The notes under the pieces are model-generated. The model ran no database searches. It was not told the origin of the DNA and saw nothing but the letters and a program-made list of their open reading frames with translations. The position numbers were made by a program, and so were the translations under genes. 64,000 nt of DNA from an uncultured Dongia sp. (GTDB lineage Bacteria > Pseudomonadota > Alphaproteobacteria > Dongiales > Dongiaceae). Location of the stretch: positions 1,775-65,774 of the forward strand of contig CAKZGO010000012.1 in assembly GCA_936916975.1 (NCBI GenBank). The letters are read 5' to 3'. Of this stretch, positions 20,962 to 61,914 are shown piece after piece; the stretch's first letter is position 1; every line of letters starts with the position of its first letter.

Positions 20962-21127
20962 CGCGAACGTCACGCGCACCACATCGCTGGCTCGCAATCC
21001 AGCCGGCGTGAGCAACGAAATATCAACGGCTTAGATAGTGGCGTCCCCAACGGGAGTTGGCCGTTATCACGCGCTGCCAACGACGTCGATCCGGATCAAG
21101 ATATAGTTTGGAAAAGCAACATATTAA

Positions 21128-21391
21128 TCATTCCGACGGCTTCCGATCACTCAGCCCCATCTCCGGCGGCGACAGATCGAACTCAATCTTATTGGCCCGG
21201 CCGCCGCAGTCGCATTTGAGTTTGGCCAGGACTTCCTCGACGGTTCCGACCTTGCGCATCCTGGCCCAAAGTTGATTGCTCTTGGCGGACCCGCTCCAGA
21301 TGGCCGGCTTTCCGCAGCTGGCGCAGGTGATGGTGGTGTGCAGTAGCGTGCCTAGGCCGCGGCCGCGCCAGGGGTGTTTCGGGTCCGTCAT
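21128..21391 (-). CDS. Small Cys-rich hypothetical protein (CxxC...CxC)
   Basis: 87 aa with TCASCGKP...KCDCGG, suggesting a zinc ribbon. Its start overlaps the stop of the upstream ORF (ATGA). GC content matches the host and phage. Confidence 0.45.
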   Translation of the reverse strand: MTDPKHPWRGRGLGTLLHTTITCASCGKPAIWSGSAKSNQLWARMRKVGTVEEVLAKLKCDCGGRANKIEFDLSPPEMGLSDRKPSE

Positions 21392-21600
21392 TTCATTGGG
21401 GCCACCTCACCCCGGCGCCGGCTCTCCTCGATGGCCCAATCCGTGTGCTCATCGCAGTGCATGACGCCGAAGTGCGCCCAGGTCGCCGCAGTGCCGTAGA
21501 TGCCGGCGAGCGCGCAGCCGGGATATTGGCACGTCGTCGCCATCTCGGGCTCGCCGACGAAGTTGAGGGTGATCGGGCCGGGGGCGGAGGGGTCGGTCAT
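21388..21600 (-). CDS. Small Cys/His-rich hypothetical protein
   Basis: 70 aa with CQYPGC...HCDEH. It is translationally coupled to the 87-aa ORF, and both begin MTDP. Confidence 0.45.
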   Translation of the reverse strand: MTDPSAPGPITLNFVGEPEMATTCQYPGCALAGIYGTAATWAHFGVMHCDEHTDWAIEESRRRGEVAPMK

Positions 21601-21757
21601 GACGGCACAAATGGCTGTTCCATTCGCGGCACGATAATGAGAACATCAGCGGAACGTCAATGGGATGAAAGTCCGGTCGCCCCCGGGTTGGACTTAGCTC
21701 CAGTAAGGCCACTCCTGATATTTGCAATCGTCTGTGATAGGCTCAGCGCAATAAAAA

Positions 21758-22138
21758 GTGGGCAGGGGTGGGGCGGTGTTCACCAAGATTTCAAATCTAT
21801 GTCTAAGTATAGTGGTTTCCTTGGTCGTTCCATGCATCCCGCTAGTAGTGGAATTGGTTAAGAATCAACAGATTAAGCCGGAAACTACGTTTGTAACCGC
21901 CGCAGTAATGGCGGGCACATTTGGTGGTCTTGCTGAAAACAAACTTAATCGCAGCATCTATGCTATTCTCTTTCTGGTAACTCTTATCCTGTACGTTATA
22001 TCTACAGATGGCACGTCCCGGCCCATTGATGGTTACGCTAATCTCTTACTGTACGGCACTATGGTAACTCATTTCTTCGAGAGATTCTGGTGGCACATAG
22101 TTTTAGATAGAAGGTTCCCATCTCCGGAAAGAGATTGA
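21758..22138 (+). CDS. Small integral membrane protein (about 4 TM), no recognised family
   Basis: 126-aa ORF starting at GTG. An alternative GTG at 21776, preceded by AGGGGTGGGG, gives 120 aa. Four hydrophobic segments are present. The region is visibly AT-rich. Confidence 0.6.
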   Translation: MGRGGAVFTKISNLCLSIVVSLVVPCIPLVVELVKNQQIKPETTFVTAAVMAGTFGGLAENKLNRSIYAILFLVTLILYVISTDGTSRPIDGYANLLLYGTMVTHFFERFWWHIVLDRRFPSPERD

Positions 22139-22142
22139 GAAA

Positions 22143-22481
22143 ATGTTAGAATTTTGGCTCCCCTTCGCTGGTCTAATTGTCGCTCTGATTGGCGCATCAA
22201 TGAGCTTTATTCGGGCTGTCCGGGCGATTGCAGCTAAGAAAAGGATGCGTAGTCTCTTGGTTAAGCGGGCAGAGTACGACGCAAATTTCCGACTTCTTGC
22301 ACAACGCGCCATAAATGAAAAGCTCACGAATAGTGAAACAGAAGCTGTCGCGCGCGCCATTGAGTCTGTCGCGCAAAAGCAAATGTCTTTGCAAGAGAGA
22401 CGCCTTGTTGAGAGCGGGATAAATCAATCAAACAATCCCGGGCGGAAGCGTTATATCCGCGACCTTCTGTCAGCGGCCTAG
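22143..22481 (+). CDS. Membrane-anchored protein (one N-terminal TM helix plus a charged helical domain), no recognised family
   Basis: 112 aa with MLEFWLPFAGLIVALIGASMSFI followed by a Lys/Arg/Glu-rich helical region. It starts 4 nt after the preceding ORF and shares its low GC. Confidence 0.6.
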   Translation: MLEFWLPFAGLIVALIGASMSFIRAVRAIAAKKRMRSLLVKRAEYDANFRLLAQRAINEKLTNSETEAVARAIESVAQKQMSLQERRLVESGINQSNNPGRKRYIRDLLSAA

Positions 22482-22552
22482 TGCACGCGAAAGAGTTGGA
22501 AGTCGCAGTCGGCGAAATCCGTGTTCGACCATGAAGAAGAAATCCTGAAACG

Positions 22553-22590
22553 CAAAAAGACCCGCCCCAGCCGAGCTGGGGCGGGTCTTA
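22553..22590 (-). terminator. Rho-independent terminator ending the late/lysis operon (bidirectional geometry)
   Basis: 14-bp perfect stem AGACCCGCCCCAGC / GCTGGGGCGGGTCT (22558-22588) with a 3-nt loop. On the minus strand it is followed by TTTTT. It lies between convergent genes. Confidence 0.85.
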
Positions 22591-22640
22591 CGTTTGTAGC
22601 CGAGGGCCGATCATCTCGGCCGCTCGGTTGAGATCAGGCG

Positions 22641-22835
22641 TCAGGCACTTTCGTGCAGGATTGTGACAGCCGTATTGATCGCGCTGATCCGCTCTTTGGC
22701 ACCGTCCGGTCGACGACCATGGATGGTTTCCAGGCTCACGTTGCAGAATTCCTCGGTCGCGCTGACCTCAGTCACCACGGCGGGGATCATCACAACATCA
22801 CCTTTTTTGAGCGGCGTCCCGTTTTTATCATGCAT
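22641..22835 (-). CDS. Hypothetical phage protein (last gene of the late transcript)
   Basis: 64-aa ORF with balanced composition, followed by the strong terminator. Confidence 0.5.
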   Translation of the reverse strand: MHDKNGTPLKKGDVVMIPAVVTEVSATEEFCNVSLETIHGRRPDGAKERISAINTAVTILHESA

Positions 22836-22883
22836 CGCTATTCTCCTTGCTGAGGGTAGTACAACGTCAATCGACGCTGTTCG

Positions 22884-23021
22884 TTAGAACCGGAATATCC
22901 AAAAGGTCACTGTCGGGATGTTGATGCCGCCATCAGACGCAACGAACGGCATCAGTTCGGGCCGCGGCGACACTGGCACCTGACAGCCTGCCAGGAGCAG
23001 GGACAGCAGCAGCCAGCGCAT
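22884..23021 (-). CDS. Small (45 aa) lipoprotein, function unknown
   Basis: An internal ATG of the 65-aa track ORF gives MRWLLLSLLLAGCQVPVSPRPELMP.... It has a lipobox LAGC. Its ATG overlaps the stop of the preceding gene (TGATG at 23019-23023). Confidence 0.55.
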   Translation of the reverse strand: MRWLLLSLLLAGCQVPVSPRPELMPFVASDGGINIPTVTFWIFRF

Positions 23022-56914: not shown

Positions 56915-57099
56915 GGCATTCCCCGTTGATGAAACTGGTAGCGATAGATCGGGCCGGCCTTGATACCGGCTAGGTGAATATTTTGTTCTTGGCAGTCGTC
57001 ACCGCCGCAAACCGGAGGCCTGCTCTGCAAGAGCGCGACCACCCACCATGGATTCGCGTGTGCCTTCCACGCCGCCGACCTTCCCTTGCGGGAACCGAA

Positions 57100-57579
57100 T
57101 TATTTCCGCCCGTTCTTCGCCGCCTTGGCGATGGCGGCGCGCACATCGTCGAGCTGCTTCTGCGCGACCTTGAGGGCCTTGGTGAGGGCGGCGTTCTCGG
57201 TAGGCGAGATCGAGGCGCCCTCATCGGACCCAAGGTCATTAGCCCTGCACACCAGGCCGTGAAAGCCACCGACGGCCTCGCCCAATTCCAGGGCTTCGAA
57301 CATCACGCCGCGCAGCTTGGGATCGTCGCCGCGGCCGACCAGCTTCAGCTGCTCGGCATAGGCCGAGAGAAACGGTGGTTCGTTCCCTGCAGCAAGACAC
57401 GCGGCATCGATCTGCAGGCAGTTGTGAATCGTCGGGCGCCCGTCATGGTCCGGGTTGGTCCAGTTGCGCACCGAACCGGTGCCGCGATCAGCGATAGCCG
57501 CGACCTGTTCGGCACCGAGAAAATGGATGGCAGCAAGGGCCGCCGCCTCGAACGAGGCCGCGTCACGCAGTCGGACCAT
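57100..57579 (-). CDS. Early regulatory protein candidate (CII position)
   Basis: I take ATG 57577-57579 (MVRLRDAASF...), 159 aa. It is the second gene of the rightward-type early operon, after the cro-like gene. Assigned by position only. Confidence 0.35.
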   Translation of the reverse strand: MVRLRDAASFEAAALAAIHFLGAEQVAAIADRGTGSVRNWTNPDHDGRPTIHNCLQIDAACLAAGNEPPFLSAYAEQLKLVGRGDDPKLRGVMFEALELGEAVGGFHGLVCRANDLGSDEGASISPTENAALTKALKVAQKQLDDVRAAIAKAAKNGRK

Positions 57580-58069
57580 GATGGATCTCCTCTTGGGTGG
57601 GTTTGTCGGGATTGGGTGTCGGTGTGGCGTCGCCGTCTGGGGTGACACCGCTTGGCAACGCACCTGCTAAAACGTCAGGTCGATTAGCGTTGTTAACCAT
57701 GGCGGGATCGGTGAGGGTGTCGGTGGCGGCGTCCCCGCCGACATGGTCGGGATTACCCCCTGGGTGAGCGCTGTCAGGAACGACGTCGCCGCAAGGCGCA
57801 TTGTCGTTCGCCGGCACACCCAGTGCAGGCAGCTTGGTGAGGCCGAAGAAATCTTCCGGCTTCAAATCGATCCCGGCAGCCCGCGCGCAACGAAGGATGG
57901 TTGGTTGAAGATCAGCAGGGATAAGGCCGTCCGTTCCGCCGCGCGCACGCGGATAGGCCCAGCAATAGACCGTCTTGGTCGTGCGGTTGACCCAGAGCGC
58001 GATGGCTTTCACCCCATCGGTCCGCGAGCCTTGGCCGCATTTCGTGATGACATGTTCCGCGATGTTCAT
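57563..58069 (-). CDS. Cro-like HTH protein with a long Pro/Asp/Thr-rich tail
   Basis: 168 aa, the first gene divergent from the repressor. The N-terminal ~75 aa fit a YdaS/Cro-type HTH pattern. ATG 58067-58069 lies 8 nt downstream of a -10 element. Confidence 0.5.
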   Translation of the reverse strand: MNIAEHVITKCGQGSRTDGVKAIALWVNRTTKTVYCWAYPRARGGTDGLIPADLQPTILRCARAAGIDLKPEDFFGLTKLPALGVPANDNAPCGDVVPDSAHPGGNPDHVGGDAATDTLTDPAMVNNANRPDVLAGALPSGVTPDGDATPTPNPDKPTQEEIHHGPTA

Positions 58070-58077
58070 GACGCCGA

Positions 58078-58098
58078 TAATTACAGATTGTGTAATTC
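58078..58098. promoter_or_regulatory. Operator O-R1: TAATTAC-N7-GTAATTC
   Basis: Inverted repeat read directly. It overlaps the spacer and -10 of the PR-like promoter. Confidence 0.65.
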
Positions 58099-58106
58099 AG
58101 CGTCAA
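58078..58106 (-). promoter_or_regulatory. PR-like promoter for the cro-like operon
   Basis: The minus strand reads TTGACG (58106-58101), 17 nt, TAATTA (58083-58078), then 8 nt to the ATG. No Shine-Dalgarno sequence is possible, so the message is leaderless or nearly so. Confidence 0.6.
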
Positions 58107-58112
58107 TAGCTG

Positions 58113-58133
58113 ATCTTACGGAACCAGTAAGAG
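58113..58133. promoter_or_regulatory. Operator O-R2 (degenerate): ATCTTAC-N7-GTAAGAG
   Basis: It has the same TTAC-N7-GTAA core and the same 21-bp geometry, centred 35 bp from O-R1. It abuts the -35 position of the PRM-like promoter. Confidence 0.45.
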
Positions 58134-58153
58134 AATTCGATTGTCTGCACCCG

Positions 58154-58159
58154 TATAAT
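58154..58159 (+). promoter_or_regulatory. PRM-like -10 hexamer TATAAT for the repressor gene (weak -35)
   Basis: A consensus TATAAT lies 6 nt upstream of the repressor ATG (58166). The 17-bp-upstream hexamer is GAGAAT, a poor -35. Confidence 0.55.
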
Positions 58160-58176
58160 TACGGGATGCGTAACAA
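58156..58176. promoter_or_regulatory. Operator O-R3: TAATTAC-N7-GTAACAA
   Basis: The left arm is perfect and the right arm matches 4 of 7 positions. It spans the repressor start codon. Confidence 0.5.
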
Positions 58177-58873
58177 GTGGCTGAAATTGCGGCTTAAAGA
58201 GATCGGCAAGACCCAAAAGGCTCTTGCGGATTTCATTGGCCTGCCCGAGCCGCGCATCACCGACATCATCCGCGGTGACCGGCGCGTCACGGCGGGCGAA
58301 TCTGAAAAGATCGCCGCCTTTATTGGATGGTCGTCGAAGAAGGTTGCGCGGATGTTGGACCCGTCCTTACCGCCGCTCGACACAGAACTAGATCTGATCG
58401 ATACGACTCGCGTTCCTGTCGTCGGTGTAATCGAAGCCGGTGAATGGCGGGAAGCGGTGGAATTCGCCATGGACGAGGATCAACCTTTTGTCGACGTGCC
58501 CCCGGACCCGCGCTATCCCGGAATTCGGCGTTTCGCATTGAGGGTCAATGGGCCGTCGATGAACCAGCTCTACCCGGACGGCAGCCATGTCATCGTCGTA
58601 CCCGCCATGGATCTCGGTGATGGTTGGCGACCAAATAACGGTCAGCGAGTTGTGGTTCAACGCACGAATGACACTGGCGGCGTCGAAACGACCGTCAAGG
58701 AATTCATGGTGCGCGAGGACGGTCAAACATTTCTGGTGCCTCGCTCGACCGATCCCACCTTCGTGGCTTGGCCTGTGCCCGCGTTCTGGGATGGGGATGG
58801 CGAGTTTGAGGAGCACAGCGATAACATTCGCGTCACTGCATTGGTAACTCAGCGGCTAACCAACGAGCCTTAA
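58166..58873 (+). CDS. CI-type prophage repressor (HTH plus S24 LexA-like autopeptidase)
   Basis: I take ATG 58166-58168 (MRNKWLKLRLKEIGKTQKALADFIGLPEPRITDIIRG...), 235 aa. The C-terminal S24 domain carries Ser in VNGPSM and Lys in TTVKEF. Confidence 0.88.
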   Translation: MRNKWLKLRLKEIGKTQKALADFIGLPEPRITDIIRGDRRVTAGESEKIAAFIGWSSKKVARMLDPSLPPLDTELDLIDTTRVPVVGVIEAGEWREAVEFAMDEDQPFVDVPPDPRYPGIRRFALRVNGPSMNQLYPDGSHVIVVPAMDLGDGWRPNNGQRVVVQRTNDTGGVETTVKEFMVREDGQTFLVPRSTDPTFVAWPVPAFWDGDGEFEEHSDNIRVTALVTQRLTNEP

Positions 58874-59301
58874 AACACCACATTCCGCAGCGCATGGGGT
58901 GGAACGTCGCGGCCGCAATAGCGACACACATTCGCTTCCAGCCGGATGATCTCAGCACAGTGCGGACATTTCTTCGAATCGTCCGCCGAATGCCCGGGTG
59001 CTATTGTAATTTCAGGGCGACGAGGCAACGTTAAAACAACTATCAACATCAAGAGACCAGCGCCGCCACTACACATGACGTGAATGGCGTCATTGAAGTA
59101 AGGGCGATAAATGAGAGGCGAATTAATCATGTGGACCACGATGTAGAAAAAAAGCCAACTGCTGTATGACAAGAATATCGTGATGGCGGCCCAATAGGCG
59201 CCGGTTCTGCCTTTAACGAATTGAGCAGTGGCACCGATCGCGATTCCCAAGACAAGTCCGGTCCAAGAGAACGATCCAGCCAGGTATGGTGATTCAACCA
59301 T
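58870..59301 (-). CDS. Membrane protein (about 4 TM) with C-terminal zinc ribbon; unknown function
   Basis: 143 aa with hydrophobic segments and CPHCAEIIRLEANVCRYCGRDV at the C-terminus. Its stop codon overlaps the repressor stop in TTAA (58870-58873). The region is low in GC. Confidence 0.65.
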   Translation of the reverse strand: MVESPYLAGSFSWTGLVLGIAIGATAQFVKGRTGAYWAAITIFLSYSSWLFFYIVVHMINSPLIYRPYFNDAIHVMCSGGAGLLMLIVVLTLPRRPEITIAPGHSADDSKKCPHCAEIIRLEANVCRYCGRDVPPHALRNVVF

Positions 59302-59337
59302 TTTTGCCTTCCTCCGATTTCCCGTCCTGAGAACTTC

Positions 59338-60033
59338 CTATTGCCATCCACAAGCCATCCGCAGTGGCGCGATAGCAGTATCCAATCCAGCCACATCGAA
59401 CTCCGCGAGAAGAGATCCGCTGTTGATTGGGGCAACCTCAATTAGCAGCGTTTTGGCGGCTGCTAGTTCTTTGGCAAAGACAATCGCACCCGGGTAAAAG
59501 ATGGACCGATTGTCTGTCGATCCACCCCACAGCTTTTCACGCAACTTCTTTTTATCGATCCGACTTTTGACATAGTGTTCCCGGTGAAACCAATGTTGGC
59601 CAATCGAGAAAATCACGCTCGTAACGTCATCCTTGCAGCGAATGAACAGCAACGCCCGTGCGGTTCCGCCGCGATCATCGGACATATAGTTTTCTGAGAA
59701 CAAACTTAGATAAATATTCACGGTGTCACTGATCTTCGACACCTCTTGCTCGACGCTCCAGCCATTACCGGTCGGTAAGGCGGCCACTGCACTATCAATC
59801 TCAGCGGGCGTGGCCCGGCGTGCTGACTTTGGTTTATCCACCTTAGTCGGAGCGATCGGTGGCGGCAGAGCGCCGTTGCCCACAGTCACACCCTTCTCGT
59901 CCATGCACAAAACATCAGTACCCAGTTGAACCGGTTTCATGCAGCCAGGTAGCGGCGCGGATTGGGGTTGTTCGGCCGATGCGATCGAAGCCGACACAAT
60001 CAGAACAAGCGACACCACCACCCATAGCCGCAC
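59338..60033 (-). CDS. Secreted/periplasmic protein, unknown function
   Basis: The track ORF starts at GTG 60039. I prefer GTG 60031-60033 (GGGAGG 5 nt upstream), giving (M)RLWVVVSLVLIVSASIASAEQ, a signal peptide, and 231 aa. The region is low in GC. Confidence 0.6.
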   Translation of the reverse strand: MRLWVVVSLVLIVSASIASAEQPQSAPLPGCMKPVQLGTDVLCMDEKGVTVGNGALPPPIAPTKVDKPKSARRATPAEIDSAVAALPTGNGWSVEQEVSKISDTVNIYLSLFSENYMSDDRGGTARALLFIRCKDDVTSVIFSIGQHWFHREHYVKSRIDKKKLREKLWGGSTDNRSIFYPGAIVFAKELAAAKTLLIEVAPINSGSLLAEFDVAGLDTAIAPLRMACGWQ

Positions 60034-60133
60034 AGTCACCTCCCATTACCCGCATTCGCATTGCATCGACTCGCCGCCGTTTTGGCAAGGCTAGTCTGTT
60101 GGGAGAATTCGCATTCCATGCCCGGATATAATA

Positions 60134-60154
60134 AAATTACAGCTTCCGTAATTT
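60134..60154. promoter_or_regulatory. Operator O-L1: AAATTAC-N7-GTAATTT
   Basis: Perfect 7-bp arms with a 7-bp spacer, read directly. Confidence 0.65.
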
Positions 60155-60158
60155 TTCC

Positions 60159-60188
60159 TTGACGGCGTAATTACAGATATCGTAATTA
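60159..60188 (+). promoter_or_regulatory. PL-like rightward promoter
   Basis: TTGACG (60159-64), 18 nt, TAATTA (60183-88). It uses the same hexamers and the same operator placement as the PR-like promoter. Confidence 0.55.
60168..60188. promoter_or_regulatory. Operator O-L2: TAATTAC-N7-GTAATTA
   Basis: Perfect 7-bp arms, centred 34 bp from O-L1. It overlaps the spacer and -10 of the PL-like promoter. Confidence 0.7.
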
Positions 60189-60242
60189 TTGATCACCGCC
60201 GGTTTCCCCCAGCGGTTGCGAGTGTCGTTCCCTCCACTCGAC

Positions 60243-60315
60243 GGCGGCCCCGGTTCCCTGTCTCCCCTCCCTGGGACGTGACGGGACCCTCCCTGACCGG
60301 GGCCGCCGCTTTTCT
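60243..60315 (+). terminator. Long hairpin with U-tract about 50 nt downstream of the PL-like start (terminator or structured RNA)
   Basis: A 12-bp perfect GC stem, GGCGGCCCCGGT (60243-54) / ACCGGGGCCGCC (60296-60307), encloses a 41-nt loop containing three TCCCTG repeats. GCTTTTCT follows. Confidence 0.45.
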
Positions 60316-60349
60316 GGGACCGCTGATCAAGGATCGTTATGCCTTACGC

Positions 60350-60649
60350 TCAGTACCTGCCAGTGGCGCGCGCCTGCCCCGATGTGCGGATGTTCAAATT
60401 CGCCGCCATCTGCCGCAGTTTCTGCTCGACGTTCTCGCGCATCGTGTACCTGGAATGCGCGCTGAAACCGATCTCGCGGCTGTACTCCGCCTTGGCCTGC
60501 CGCATGGCGCCATCATGGATTTCCTTGAGCAAGGTGGTGCGGTCGATCCCATGCCGGATCATCGCACAGGCCAGCTCCTCGTTGATGATTTCCATCGCGT
60601 TGACACGGCCAAGCAGTTCTTCAAACCGATACTCCAATACTTCCGACAT
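60350..60649 (-). CDS. Hypothetical 99-aa protein
   Basis: I take ATG 60647-60649 (MSEVLEYRFEELLGRVNAMEIINEEL...). It has balanced composition and high third-position GC in this frame. The rest of the 309-aa track ORF overlaps + strand genes and looks like shadow sequence. Confidence 0.5.
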   Translation of the reverse strand: MSEVLEYRFEELLGRVNAMEIINEELACAMIRHGIDRTTLLKEIHDGAMRQAKAEYSREIGFSAHSRYTMRENVEQKLRQMAANLNIRTSGQARATGRY

Positions 60650-60684
60650 CTTGGGGTTCCAGTCTCTTTGGGTTTCGGGAGTTA

Positions 60685-60721
60685 GGCACCGGGTCTCGAC
60701 GGCGAATCGAGATCCGGTGCC
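60685..60721. repeat. 15-bp near-perfect inverted repeat GGCACCGGGTCTCGA-N7-TCGAGATCCGGTGCC
   Basis: Read directly, with one mismatch. It lies in the 148-bp gap between divergent genes 60350-60649 (-) and 60798 (+). Confidence 0.6.
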
Positions 60722-60797
60722 GTCATCATATGCGCGGGCGGCGCAACTGTCCTTTTTTCCCACGATCACTTTTGCCCTTGTTGAGGAGTGCTGAGCC

Positions 60798-61100
60798 ATG
60801 TCCCGACTGTATGGCGGCGCCGGCCGCATCAAGGATAAACCTGACCTCACCGCCTTGCGCGCCGCCCTGGCGCTGGACCAGGCGCGCGCCGCCAACGGCA
60901 AGCCGCTGCATGGTGCCGCCCGTCTCCAGGCCCGCATCACCGCGATGGCCGAGGAGATCGTGGCCCGCACGATCGCCAACGACAATTGCACCGCCGCCGA
61001 TCTGCTGCAGGCGGGCTTTGCCCAGGCCGACATCGACGCCCTGGGTGCGCGGGCCGTTGAACGTGCCCGCTTGCGCGCGCCCAATCTGCGCGTCGCGTGA
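60798..61100 (+). CDS. Hypothetical early-left protein
   Basis: 100 aa with GAGGAG 9 nt upstream of the ATG. Confidence 0.55.
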   Translation: MSRLYGGAGRIKDKPDLTALRAALALDQARAANGKPLHGAARLQARITAMAEEIVARTIANDNCTAADLLQAGFAQADIDALGARAVERARLRAPNLRVA

Positions 61101-61333
61101 GCGTGATGCTGGGCCTCTTCCGCCGCAAGCCGGCACCCGCATCGACCTTCGACGCCGACGCCTATCTGCGCGACGCGCGCCCGCCGCGCGACCTGTCGCC
61201 GGATCGGATCGCCGCCTTGCGCGCGCACTCGCCGAAGTTTGCTGAGGCTCATTCCAGCATCGCGAAGGCCGATATCCACGCCGACGAGATCCGCACCGAT
61301 CCAGCCAAGGTCGGAAGGAAGGCCGAGATATGA
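61097..61333 (+). CDS. Hypothetical early-left protein
   Basis: 78 aa. A GTG start overlaps the upstream stop (GTGA); an alternative ATG is at 61106. Confidence 0.45.
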   Translation: MSVMLGLFRRKPAPASTFDADAYLRDARPPRDLSPDRIAALRAHSPKFAEAHSSIAKADIHADEIRTDPAKVGRKAEI

Positions 61334-61914
61334 TCCTCCGCGCGATCATCCTGGCTCTCATTGCCCCGCTCCTGGCGGCGCCTATCTATGGCGACCCCGT
61401 CAGCGCAGCACCCGACTTCATGCCCGTTGCCGAATTCAATGAACCGGTCGGCCTGCGCGGCAAGGTGCCGGGCGCCAGCTATGCGTTCTGTATGGCCCAG
61501 CGTGCGTTGTGTTCCTTTGTCCTGCCGGCCCTGCCTTTGCCCGACGATGCCATGGCAATACTCAACCGCGTCAACCGCGATGTGAATGCCGGCATCGCCT
61601 TCCGTGCCGATGAGCCCAGCATAGATGCCTGGGAGATCGAACCCGTCGCCGGTGACTGCGAAGACTATGTCGTCACCAAATTGGCGCGCTTGGTGGCGGC
61701 CGGCATCCCGCGCGATACCCTGCGCCTCGCCACGGCACAGTTGCCCGATGGCCGGTTCCACATCGTGCTGGTGGCCCAGACCTGGCGCGGCTCGTTCATT
61801 CTCGACAACCGCACCGATGCGATCCTGCCGTGGCGCGGTGTCAATTATCGCTGGCTGGCCATGGAAACCAATGGCGCCGGCACGGCGATGGCGTGGCACG
61901 AGGTGCTGCCGTGA
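61330..61914 (+). CDS. Secreted transglutaminase-like cysteine peptidase (BTLCP/LapG family, PF06035-like)
   Basis: 194 aa with signal peptide MILRAIILALIAPLLAAPIYG. It has the hallmark GDCEDYVVTKL (Cys), GRFHIVLV (His) and FILDNRTD (Asp) spacing of BTLCPs. Its start overlaps the upstream stop (ATGA). Confidence 0.8.
   Translation: MILRAIILALIAPLLAAPIYGDPVSAAPDFMPVAEFNEPVGLRGKVPGASYAFCMAQRALCSFVLPALPLPDDAMAILNRVNRDVNAGIAFRADEPSIDAWEIEPVAGDCEDYVVTKLARLVAAGIPRDTLRLATAQLPDGRFHIVLVAQTWRGSFILDNRTDAILPWRGVNYRWLAMETNGAGTAMAWHEVLP

What the first reader, a model, noticed from the sequence alone, without database searches (positions are those of the whole stretch)
58870..60033. Low-GC two-gene cassette between the CI repressor gene and the OL-like operators (rexAB-position moron; candidate exclusion/defence module)
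Two minus-strand genes occupy the slot lambda uses for rexA-rexB, between cI and OL/PL. One encodes a 143-aa protein with about 4 TM helices and a C-terminal CPHC-x13-CRYC zinc ribbon. The other encodes a 231-aa signal-peptide protein. My hand counts of several 60-nt lines here give about 42-45% GC, against about 60-70% in the rest of the prophage, so the pair looks laterally acquired. The zinc-ribbon gene and cI converge, and both stop codons overlap in one TTAA (58870-58873). There is no terminator between them, so cI read-through is antisense to the cassette. I recognise no characterised family for either protein.
Basis: partly seen in the sequence, partly recalled or inferred. Interest (0 to 1): 0.72.

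Follow-up and report, generated by a model that had tools for sequence, protein, structure and literature searches.

The report
Prophage VasI-like envelope gene pair beside cI
Next to the repressor gene of a lambda-like prophage sit two imported genes, one for a secreted protein of the poorly understood VasI/TagO family and one for a small zinc-ribbon membrane protein; they most likely act at the cell envelope to keep other phages out, which has not been tested.

Summary
The two minus-strand genes are real (58870-59301 and 59338-60033). They lie between a CI-type repressor gene and two operators that share the motif of the three operators at the switch.

- GC is 53%, not 42-45%.
- The membrane protein has three hydrophobic helices, not four.
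- The zinc motif is CPHC-x10-CRYC.

The 231-aa protein is not an orphan. Its C-terminal 145 residues belong to the VasI/TagO domain family (PF11319, phrog_1848), with an IalB-like fold and more than 2,000 homologous clusters. It is far below the cut-off for a true T6SS VasI.

Homologues recur in prophage lysogeny modules:
- two lie directly downstream of CI-type repressors;
- in P2-like prophages the gene is always paired with a zinc-ribbon membrane gene;
- 8 of 149 top homologues fuse zinc ribbon, membrane helix and VasI domain in one chain.

A 2024 preprint reports that SDIC4B, a protein with a VasI-like fold, alone gives 10-200-fold phage protection. Whether this pair belongs to SDIC4 could not be tested.

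Best reading: an envelope-acting, prophage-expressed exclusion module. It is a new variant of a known kind, of moderate interest.

The parts
59338..60033 (-). Gene A, 231 aa. A Sec-type signal peptide is followed by a Cys-pair motif (C31, C43), a Pro-rich linker and a C-terminal VasI/TagO-like domain (about residues 90-231, with conserved C133 and C228).
   Evidence: The ORF is listed and the 231-aa call is on record as P0001. It matches PF11319 at 27.0 bits (cut-off 26.5) and phrog_1848 at E = 5.8e-28. Exhaustive HMMER finds 2205 clusters. The AF2 model has pLDDT 84.9, above 90 in the domain. The best PDB fold match is IalB 3DTD.
58870..59301 (-). Gene B, 143 aa. A small inner-membrane protein with three hydrophobic helices and a C-terminal CPHC-x10-CRYC zinc ribbon, inferred to face the cytoplasm.
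   Evidence: The ORF is listed. Zn_ribbon_3 scores 25.7 bits, just under its cut-off of 27. It also matches phrog_8032, phrog_31852 and phrog_8436. Homologues share KCPHCAExIxxEAxVCRYCGRD. Hydropathy and the AF2 helices agree on three segments.
59302..59337 (-). 36-nt spacer between genes A and B, with SD GGAGG at 59315-59311. The two genes are probably co-transcribed.
   Evidence: Read from the sequence. No terminator-like site was found here.
60034..60136 (-). Upstream region of gene A. It holds SD GGGAGG (60044-60039), a candidate sigma-70-like promoter TTGCCA (60088-60083)-17-TGCAAT (60065-60060), and a direct repeat ATTCGCATTGCAT / ATTCGCATTCCAT (60054-60066 and 60107-60119).
   Evidence: The promoter is my reading; the automatic scan did not call it. 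The repeat is family D20.
60137..60185 (.). Two OL-like operators, TTAC-N7-GTAA, at 60137-60151 and 60171-60185. The second overlaps a rightward promoter-like site, TTGACG (60159-60164)-18-TAATTA (60183-60188).
   Evidence: The motif gives 5 matches against 0.08 expected. The promoter is my reading.
58166..58873 (+). cI-type repressor gene, 235 aa, converging on gene B with a 4-base overlap.
   Evidence: HTH_3 and Peptidase_S24 and phrog_4 transcriptional repressor. A 235-aa gene call is recorded.
58081..58173 (.). Three OR-like operators at 58081-58095, 58116-58130 and 58159-58173, between cI and the divergent leftward genes. TATAAT at 58154-58159 lies 6 nt before the cI ATG, so the cI mRNA is probably leaderless, as from lambda PRM.
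   Evidence: Operators, sequence, and a leftward promoter-like site at 58106-58077. The layout is my reading.

Best explanation
This is a horizontally acquired two-gene moron in the immunity region of a lambda-like prophage of an uncultured Dongia sp. (an alphaproteobacterium).

Gene A makes a periplasmic protein. A Sec signal peptide is removed, two disulfides probably form, and the C-terminal domain has the VasI/TagO fold, which resembles IalB. Gene B makes a small inner-membrane protein whose zinc ribbon faces the cytoplasm.

I infer that the two work as one trans-envelope unit, the split form of single-chain 'zinc ribbon - membrane helix - VasI domain' proteins found elsewhere. I also infer that the unit is made in the lysogen from its own promoter, and that the periplasmic VasI-like domain interferes with an envelope step of infection by other phages. 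The most likely step is passage of the tail tip or DNA across the periplasm and inner membrane, which would make this superinfection exclusion. The membrane partner would anchor or tune it.

Shown: the gene structures, the domain family and fold, the foreign composition, the position between cI and the operators, and the recurrence of homologues next to prophage repressors.

Inferred: expression in the lysogen, a physical A-B interaction, and the anti-phage effect and its step.
For: Family and fold:
- phrog_1848 at E = 5.8e-28 and PF11319 above its cut-off.
- 2205 homologous clusters.
- A confident AF2 model with an IalB-like fold (Foldseek E = 1e-5, TM 0.6).

Link between zinc ribbon and VasI domain, from three independent lines:
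- The two genes are adjacent here, 36 nt apart.
- A zinc-ribbon membrane gene lies immediately upstream of the VasI/TagO-like gene in P2-like prophages. The pair is in 240 of 5426 complete E. coli genomes, and both genes lie under the match in every listed row. In three E. coli loci and one Klebsiella phage examined it sits after ogr at the prophage end. In enterobacterial species genomes the zinc-ribbon ORF is detected in 5 of 7 loci, plus a truncated copy in a sixth.
- 8 of 149 top homologues are single-chain fusions of zinc ribbon, membrane helix and VasI domain.

Lysogeny-module context:
- P0017 (39% identical) lies 23 bp after a CI homologue on the same strand. That CI is 43% identical to this one.
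- The fusion P0050 lies 3 bp after an HTH+S24 repressor.
- Two IMG/VR contigs have the order repressor - X - VasI-like, followed in L020 by an integrase-like ORF (my reading).
- Labrenzia phage vB_LagS-V1 has its copy in the CI region.

Foreign composition.

Experimental precedent: SDIC4B, a protein with a VasI-like fold, alone gave 10-200-fold protection against phages in E. coli and Serratia. [quoted passage not shown] SDIC4 is among the DefenseFinder subtypes counted in PMC13639185.
Against: - No direct evidence of expression or phenotype exists for this locus.
- PADLOC v2 has no hit for either protein or for any of the four phage/prophage VasI-like homologues and two neighbour proteins tested, apart from one weak 13.6-bit hit.
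- Homology to SDIC4B could not be tested because its sequence is not held here. SDIC4A was dispensable and even lowered protection.
- The mechanism of SDIC4, and of VasI, TagO and IalB, is unknown, so the 'entry block' step is a guess.
- Most VasI-like genes in other phages have no zinc-ribbon neighbour.
- Zinc-ribbon homologues occur without a VasI gene.
- The zinc-ribbon partners in the three settings belong to different PHROGs and have different topologies.
- The cassette converges on cI, so antisense read-through could damp it in lysogens.
- The same fold occurs in virulent T4-like phages.
Confidence: 0.45

Rival explanations
1. The pair is a lysogenic-conversion or envelope-fitness factor unrelated to phages. 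It might modulate or protect against type VI secretion attack, or alter envelope or host-interaction properties as proposed for IalB. It would benefit the lysogen without blocking phages.
For: - The domain family is named for T6SS-associated VasI/TagO.
- The closest solved fold is Bartonella IalB, an invasion-associated protein.
- Prophage VasI-family genes have been listed as virulence cargo (PMC6456863).
- The envelope location suits many non-phage roles.
Against: - The protein scores 24 bits against a 124-bit cut-off for the T6SS VasI equivalog. The six phage and prophage homologues tested also fall far below it.
- No T6SS gene was seen among the neighbours or the large ORFs that were examined.
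- The role of TagO/VasI in T6SS is itself unknown.
- The only experimental phenotype for a VasI-fold protein outside T6SS clusters is anti-phage.
Confidence: 0.2
2. The two genes are independent neighbours rather than one system. The zinc-ribbon membrane gene would be a separate small moron (or part of the immunity region), and the VasI-like gene would act alone.
For: - SDIC4B works alone.
- Many phage VasI-like genes have no zinc-ribbon neighbour.
- In L009 the partner is a lipoprotein instead.
- A zinc-ribbon homologue (P0004) converges end-to-end on an HTH repressor with different upstream cargo and no VasI gene.
- Other homologues sit in non-phage contexts.
Against: - There are 8 fusions among 149 top homologues, one of them directly after a CI-type repressor.
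- The pairing holds in every P2-like prophage examined, even at 69% DNA identity and at different integration sites.
- Here the genes share a 36-nt gap with an SD and a similar low GC.
Confidence: 0.25
3. The cassette serves the phage's own lytic cycle. It might provide exclusion or lysis-timing during infection, in the manner of T4 Imm/Sp, and be switched on after induction rather than in the lysogen.
For: - Operators lie just upstream. One (60137-60151) could overlap an alternative AT-rich promoter, so CI might repress the cassette (my reading).
- Fold relatives exist in virulent T4-like phages RB16 and KP15 and in Aeromonas phage 65.2.
- Read-through from cI would oppose cassette expression in lysogens.
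Against: - Two homologues are placed to be co-transcribed with the repressor gene.
- The P2-like copies sit at the prophage end beside hok/mok cargo, which is typical of lysogen-expressed morons.
- The better candidate promoter (60088-60060) is clear of the operators.
Confidence: 0.1

Closest known systems
SDIC4 anti-phage system (SDIC4A + SDIC4B) of Serratia and Enterobacteria (bioRxiv 10.1101/2024.01.28.577318; among the DefenseFinder subtypes counted in PMC13639185)
   Same: It is a two-gene locus whose key protein has a VasI-like fold. [quoted passage not shown] SDIC4B alone protects 10-200-fold.
   Different: SDIC4 sequences are not held here, so homology is untested. SDIC4 is often found next to BrxR in chromosomal islands, whereas this pair is beside cI in a prophage. 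The nature of SDIC4A is unknown to me. Here the partner lies downstream and is a zinc-ribbon membrane protein. The host is an alphaproteobacterium.
Zinc-ribbon + 'TagO' pair of P2-like prophages (e.g. Escherichia phage 500465-2 gp37/gp38; Klebsiella phage 3LV2017)
   Same: It pairs a zinc-ribbon membrane protein with a signal-peptide protein that ends in the same phrog_1848/VasI domain (about 31% identity over 140-150 aa). It is prophage cargo.
   Different: The gene order is reversed. There the zinc ribbon is N-terminal (110 aa, phrog_6586); here it is C-terminal after three helices (phrog_8032/8436). The two partners align only over the ribbon. The P2-like pair sits between ogr and attR, not beside the repressor. 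Its function is unknown.
T6SS accessory protein VasI/TagO (VCA0118; PF11319, TIGR03360)
   Same: It shares the domain family.
   Different: The protein here scores 24 bits against a 124-bit equivalog cut-off and is not in a T6SS cluster. The function of TagO is itself listed as unknown (PMC13584744).
Lambda rexA-rexB
   Same: Both are accessory two-gene cargo between cI and OL, and both include a membrane component.
   Different: There is no sequence relationship (no RexA or RexB family came up). The strand is opposite to cI, so the pair is not part of the PRM transcript. The products are periplasmic plus membrane, rather than a cytoplasmic sensor plus an ion channel.
IalB (PDB 3DTD, Bartonella henselae)
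   Same: It is the best solved-structure match to the C-terminal domain (Foldseek E = 1e-5, TM about 0.6 on the target). Both are envelope proteins of alphaproteobacteria.
   Different: Identity is only 13-16%. No Pfam IalB hit and no sequence hit in the PDB were found. The biochemical function of IalB is also unknown.

Membership tests
VasI/TagO domain family (Pfam PF11319) | Match to the PF11319 profile above the gathering score | tested here: met
   The score is 27.0 bits against a cut-off of 26.5, over residues 126-232. This is marginal on its own. It is backed by homologues that carry PF11319 on record and by E. coli homologues that hit TIGR03360 at 3.5e-21.
T6SS VasI proper (NCBIfam TIGR03360 equivalog) | Score above the equivalog cut-off (124.2 bits) | tested here: not met
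   The score is 24.2 bits. The six phage and prophage homologues tested score 20-76 bits.
T6SS VasI proper (NCBIfam TIGR03360 equivalog) | Encoded within a type VI secretion gene cluster | tested here: not met
   The gene lies inside a lambda-like prophage with terminase, portal and tape measure genes. Its neighbours are cI, a CII-like gene, a methylase and a GapR-like gene.
PHROG phrog_1848 (phage proteins of unknown function) | Significant match to the family profile over its full length | tested here: met
   E = 5.8e-28, 98.7 bits, profile positions 18-166 of 166. The P2-like, Labrenzia, P0017 and P0050 homologues match the same family.
SDIC4 defence system | Key protein with a VasI-like fold | tested here: met
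   PF11319 match and a confident AF2 model of the domain.
SDIC4 defence system | Sequence homology to SDIC4B and SDIC4A (the authors' cblaster search for SDIC4 loci used at least 30% identity and 50% coverage) | not testable with these tools
   Only the locus tags are given, AWY87_RS12625 and AWY87_RS24860 in NZ_FCKZ01000002.1.
SDIC4 defence system | Two adjacent genes with an intergenic gap under 70 bp | tested here: inconclusive
   The two genes are 36 nt apart. However, the partner lies downstream of the VasI-like gene, and what kind of protein SDIC4A is remains unknown to me.
SDIC4 defence system | Reduces the plating efficiency of phages | not testable with these tools
   This needs an experiment.
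Lambda RexAB | Located between cI and OL | tested here: met
   cI ends at 58873, the operators lie at 60137-60185, and the cassette lies between them.
Lambda RexAB | Co-transcribed with cI (same strand, from PRM) | tested here: not met
   The cassette is on the minus strand and cI is on the plus strand. They converge.
Lambda RexAB | Homology to RexA or RexB | tested here: not met
   No such family appears in Pfam, PHROGs, NCBIfam or PADLOC at E <= 0.1-1.
IalB family | Sequence match to IalB | tested here: not met
   There is no Pfam IalB hit at E <= 0.1 and no PDB sequence hit with the family profile. Only the fold resembles IalB.
Zinc-ribbon domain (PF13248 Zn_ribbon_3) | Four-Cys ribbon and a profile match above the cut-off | tested here: inconclusive
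   CPHC-x10-CRYC is present and invariant in homologues. The score is 25.7 bits against a cut-off of 27.

The most novel reading that the evidence does not exclude
VasI/TagO-fold periplasmic domains, alone or coupled to a cytoplasmic zinc ribbon through a membrane segment, could be a general guard against puncturing machines. On this reading they recognise the tip of a phage tail, or a T6SS spike, as it crosses the periplasm. The prophage copies beside cI would be the exclusion arm of immunity. This would give a first function to the long-unexplained T6SS accessory protein TagO/VasI and to the IalB fold. It would also make the split and fused zinc-ribbon forms a trans-envelope device that reports or anchors that recognition.
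Probability: 0.12. Interest if true: 0.8.

Novelty: new variant of a known kind. Interest (0 to 1): 0.45.

Why it matters
If the reading is right, a protein family annotated for years as 'type VI secretion-associated, function unknown' has a large phage-borne branch. That branch has more than 2,000 sequence clusters, forms its own PHROG, and is present in 4% of complete E. coli genomes through P2-like prophages. Its natural place would be the lysogeny module, where temperate phages keep their exclusion genes.

The recurrent coupling to a zinc-ribbon membrane protein appears as a neighbour here, as a neighbour in P2-like phages and as a fusion elsewhere. It gives a concrete two-part unit to test. 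It would extend the single experimental report (SDIC4) from enterobacterial islands to alphaproteobacterial prophages.

If the reading is wrong, this is still a clean example of a moron slot beside cI that different phages appear to fill with different envelope proteins.

Tried and rejected
- **PADLOC v2**: no hit for either window protein. The four phage/prophage VasI-like homologues, their two neighbours and the 99-aa ORF gave nothing either, apart from one weak 13.6-bit hit.
- **PDB by sequence**: nothing with the family profile.
- **Rfam on 57000-61500**: nothing.
- **tRNA scan**: none, so no att-site clue.
- **Word-based homologue search**: only the protein itself for gene A, and ribbon-dominated hits for gene B.
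- **Close relatives of CI**: none in viral or metagenome contigs with the single protein. A two-sequence CI alignment did find 11 loci.
- **Family alignments A1 and A2** were too divergent for locus scans.
- **Contigs for P0016, P0019 and P0093** were too short to give context.
- **Neighbours of zinc-ribbon homologues** are not VasI-like by hmmsearch.
- **Link from the P2-like pair to SDIC4 through BrxR adjacency**: all four flanks I examined (three E. coli, one Salmonella) were P2-like prophages, so the link stays open.
- **AF2 of the zinc-ribbon protein**: low confidence (pLDDT 66), used only to count helices.
- **Holin or spanin reading**: rejected, because the lysis genes appear to lie elsewhere, at about 23.0-25.0 kb (my reading of the ORFs).
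Full report
**1. What is in the sequence**

The window is a lambda-like prophage in an alphaproteobacterial genome. One source names gene B's product as from 'uncultured Dongia sp.'. The prophage has a gpA-type large terminase, a lambda-family portal and a tape measure protein, with host genes below about 20 kb.

At the finding's coordinates there are two minus-strand ORFs, 58870-59301 (143 aa) and 59338-60033 (231 aa). For the 231-aa gene the second GTG (60033) is the likely start, because it lies five bases after GGGAGG (my reading). The public record P0001 makes the same 231-aa call. The genes are 36 nt apart, with GGAGG nine bases before the second ATG.

The cI-type gene (58166-58873, HTH_3 + Peptidase_S24) converges on the 143-aa gene. 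The two stop codons share TTAA 58870-58873. No terminator-like site is predicted there.

**2. The immunity switch is real**

The palindrome TTAC-N7-GTAA occurs five times in 64 kb against 0.08 expected. Three copies lie between cI and the divergent leftward genes (58081-58173). Two lie just beyond the cassette (60137-60185).

By my reading, the layout resembles lambda:
- TATAAT at 58154-58159 sits six bases before the cI ATG, so the mRNA is probably leaderless.
- One operator is centred near -43.
- One operator lies over the start site.
- One operator lies over a leftward TTGACG-18-AATTAT site.

At the right-hand pair, a rightward TTGACG-18-TAATTA site is overlapped by operator 60171-60185.

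A further minus-strand 99-aa ORF (60350-60649, GC3 0.79, called in public records) separates the operators from the rightward early genes.

**3. Corrections to the observation**

- Cassette GC is 52.9%, not 42-45%. The window mean is 61.1% (sd 2.6% for windows of the same length). The cassette is in the lowest 1.8% of windows, and GC3 is 56-58% against 75-79% in neighbours. Foreign origin remains a fair inference.
- The membrane protein has three hydrophobic helices, at about residues 13-32, 35-60 and 69-91.
- The motif is CPHC-x10-CRYC.

**4. Gene A is a VasI/TagO-family protein**

- It matches phrog_1848 (E = 5.8e-28).
- It matches PF11319 VasI just above the gathering score (27.0 against 26.5).
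- It matches TIGR03360 only weakly (24 against 124 bits).
- An exhaustive HMMER search finds 2205 clusters at E <= 1e-3. All align to the C-terminal 145 residues or so, and the best non-self hit is 39% identical.
- Conserved positions include W92, C133, R158, D160, S172, C228 and W230.
- The AF2 model is confident in the domain (pLDDT above 90).
- Its best solved-structure match is Bartonella IalB, 3DTD (E = 1e-5, TM about 0.6). There is no sequence-level PDB hit.
- Among predicted viral structures it matches only uncharacterised phage proteins, including some from virulent T4-like phages.

TagO/VasI is listed as 'unknown' in a 2026 review of T6SS accessory factors (PMC13584744).

**5. Gene B**

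Gene B encodes a small membrane protein with a C-terminal zinc ribbon. Homologues are mostly 86-120-aa proteins with two helices and an almost invariant KCPHCAExIxxEAxVCRYCGRD. Pfam zinc-ribbon models score just under their cut-offs. A cytoplasmic ribbon is inferred from the positive-inside rule and from the need for reduced cysteines.

**6. Are the two genes one unit?**

Three independent lines say probably yes.

- *Adjacency here.* The genes are 36 nt apart and share low GC.
- *P2-like prophages.* In Escherichia, Klebsiella, Enterobacter, Raoultella and Salmonella, a 110-117-aa protein (N-terminal zinc ribbon plus two helices) lies immediately upstream of a signal-peptide protein that ends in the same VasI domain. 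The Salmonella and four E. coli/Klebsiella loci were checked and are P2-like prophages. The pair is in 240 of 5426 complete E. coli genomes and both genes lie under the match in every listed row, including one at 69% DNA identity at another integration site. In the loci examined it sits after ogr at the prophage end.
- *Fusions.* 8 of 149 top homologues are single chains of zinc ribbon, membrane helix and VasI domain.

Against this:
- The ribbon partners belong to different PHROGs and align only over the ribbon.
- Most other phage VasI-like genes lack such a neighbour.
- Ribbon homologues occur without a VasI gene, including one that converges on an HTH repressor in a phage-like region.

**7. 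Context of homologues**

- P0017 (39% identical) lies 23 bp downstream of a CI homologue on the same strand and is followed by a lipoprotein gene. That CI is 43% identical to this one.
- The fusion P0050 lies 3 bp downstream of an HTH+S24 repressor.
- Two IMG/VR contigs have the order repressor - X - VasI-like; in L020 an integrase-like ORF follows (my reading).
- Labrenzia phage vB_LagS-V1 has its copy in the CI region.
- A Klebsiella phage has its copy beside an arc/ant/repressor block.

In 11 loci with CI homologues of 35-47% identity, no VasI or ribbon homologue was found downstream of cI. By naive ORF calls, several carry convergent genes for small membrane, secreted or lipoprotein-like products instead. 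One is a low-GC pair of a signal-peptide protein and a 72-aa two-helix protein. The slot therefore looks like a variable island that favours envelope proteins.

**8. Link to known biology**

A 2024 preprint (10.1101/2024.01.28.577318) describes SDIC4, a two-gene system whose SDIC4B has a VasI-like fold:
- It occurs in about 18,000 mostly enterobacterial genomes.
- SDIC4B alone gives 10-200-fold protection against several phages, whereas SDIC4A does not protect.
- SDIC4 is among the DefenseFinder subtypes counted in a 2026 synton survey.

PADLOC v2 (2023) has no hit. Whether the P2-like zinc-ribbon/TagO pair is SDIC4 is plausible on distribution but unproven.

**9. Mechanism**

Shown: an exported VasI-fold protein and a small membrane protein, encoded together as foreign cargo in an immunity region.

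Inferred: they form a trans-envelope unit made in the lysogen. The periplasmic domain blocks an envelope step of superinfecting phages, and the ribbon protein anchors or tunes it. I put this at 0.45.

The rivals are an envelope or T6SS-related fitness role, independent neighbours, and a lytic-cycle role. The regulatory reading is open in three respects:
- A candidate promoter (TTGCCA-17-TGCAAT, 60088-60060) lies clear of the operators.
- An AT-rich alternative would be overlapped by operator 60137-60151.
- Convergent read-through from cI could interfere with the cassette.

**10. Verdict**

The 'orphan' claim is wrong, and the defence idea is reasonable but unproven. This is a new variant of a known kind, of moderate interest.

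Noticed in passing
window 60350-60649 (-): A 99-aa ORF with gene-like GC3 (0.79) lies between the OL-like operators and the rightward early genes. Public gene calls disagree: some call this ORF and others call an antisense 151-aa ORF. It has no PHROG or PADLOC match, and no Pfam family is on record for the public gene call. A rightward promoter at the operators would read antisense through it.
   Followed up: partly
window 60210-60325 (+): A GC-rich structured element lies just downstream of the rightward promoter-like site. It has perfect 13-nt arms (60242-60254 and 60296-60308) followed by CTTTTCT. Its MFE is -62.7 kcal/mol (z = -3.3) and it has no Rfam match. It could be a terminator or an antitermination-type leader.
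   Followed up: partly
window 60685-60721: A 15-nt inverted repeat (GGCACCGGGTCTCGA-N7-TCGAGATCCGGTGCC, 93% complementary) lies in the divergent intergenic region between the 99-aa ORF and the first rightward gene (60798). It may be a second operator or a terminator.
   Followed up: no
window 58081-58173: The switch looks lambda-like in detail. TATAAT lies 6 nt before the cI ATG (leaderless mRNA), one operator is centred near -43, one lies over the start site, and one lies over the leftward promoter-like site.
   Followed up: partly
window about 21100-22900: A second low-GC island, the lowest in the window (about 50%), lies beyond the lysis-like genes at the low-coordinate edge of the phage genes, next to a LysR-like ORF (my reading). 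It has ORFs that look like small membrane proteins (21758-22138 and 22143-22481). It is probably another moron slot.
   Followed up: no
L001, L016, L017, L023-L029 (E. coli, Klebsiella, Enterobacter, Raoultella, Salmonella): A zinc-ribbon membrane gene plus a 'TagO' gene form a fixed pair after ogr at the prophage end in the P2-like prophages examined, beside hok/mok in two E. coli loci. The pair is present in 240 of 5426 complete E. coli genomes. It may be the published SDIC4 system, but I could not check this.
   Followed up: partly
L049, L050, L055, L057 (metagenome loci with CI homologues): Downstream of related cI genes, naive ORF calls show unrelated convergent ORFs for small membrane, signal-peptide or lipoprotein-like products. 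L050 has a low-GC pair of a 150-aa secreted protein and a 72-aa two-helix protein. The slot seems to collect envelope proteins.
   Followed up: partly
L045/L046 2949-3608: A homologue of the zinc-ribbon protein (P0004) abuts a convergent HTH_3 gene end-to-end in a phage-like region with GapR and CII-like genes. This is the same geometry as in the window, but the upstream cargo differs (364 aa + DUF4325 + 149 aa).
   Followed up: partly
window 60054-60066 and 60107-60119: A direct repeat, ATTCGCATTGCAT / ATTCGCATTCCAT, lies 53 bp apart in the upstream region of the VasI-like gene. One copy overlaps the candidate -10.
   Followed up: no
window 61330-61914 (+): A BTLCP-type cysteine peptidase gene (Peptidase_C93, E = 1.7e-30) sits in the rightward early operon, near a GapR-like gene. 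This is unusual early-region cargo.
   Followed up: no
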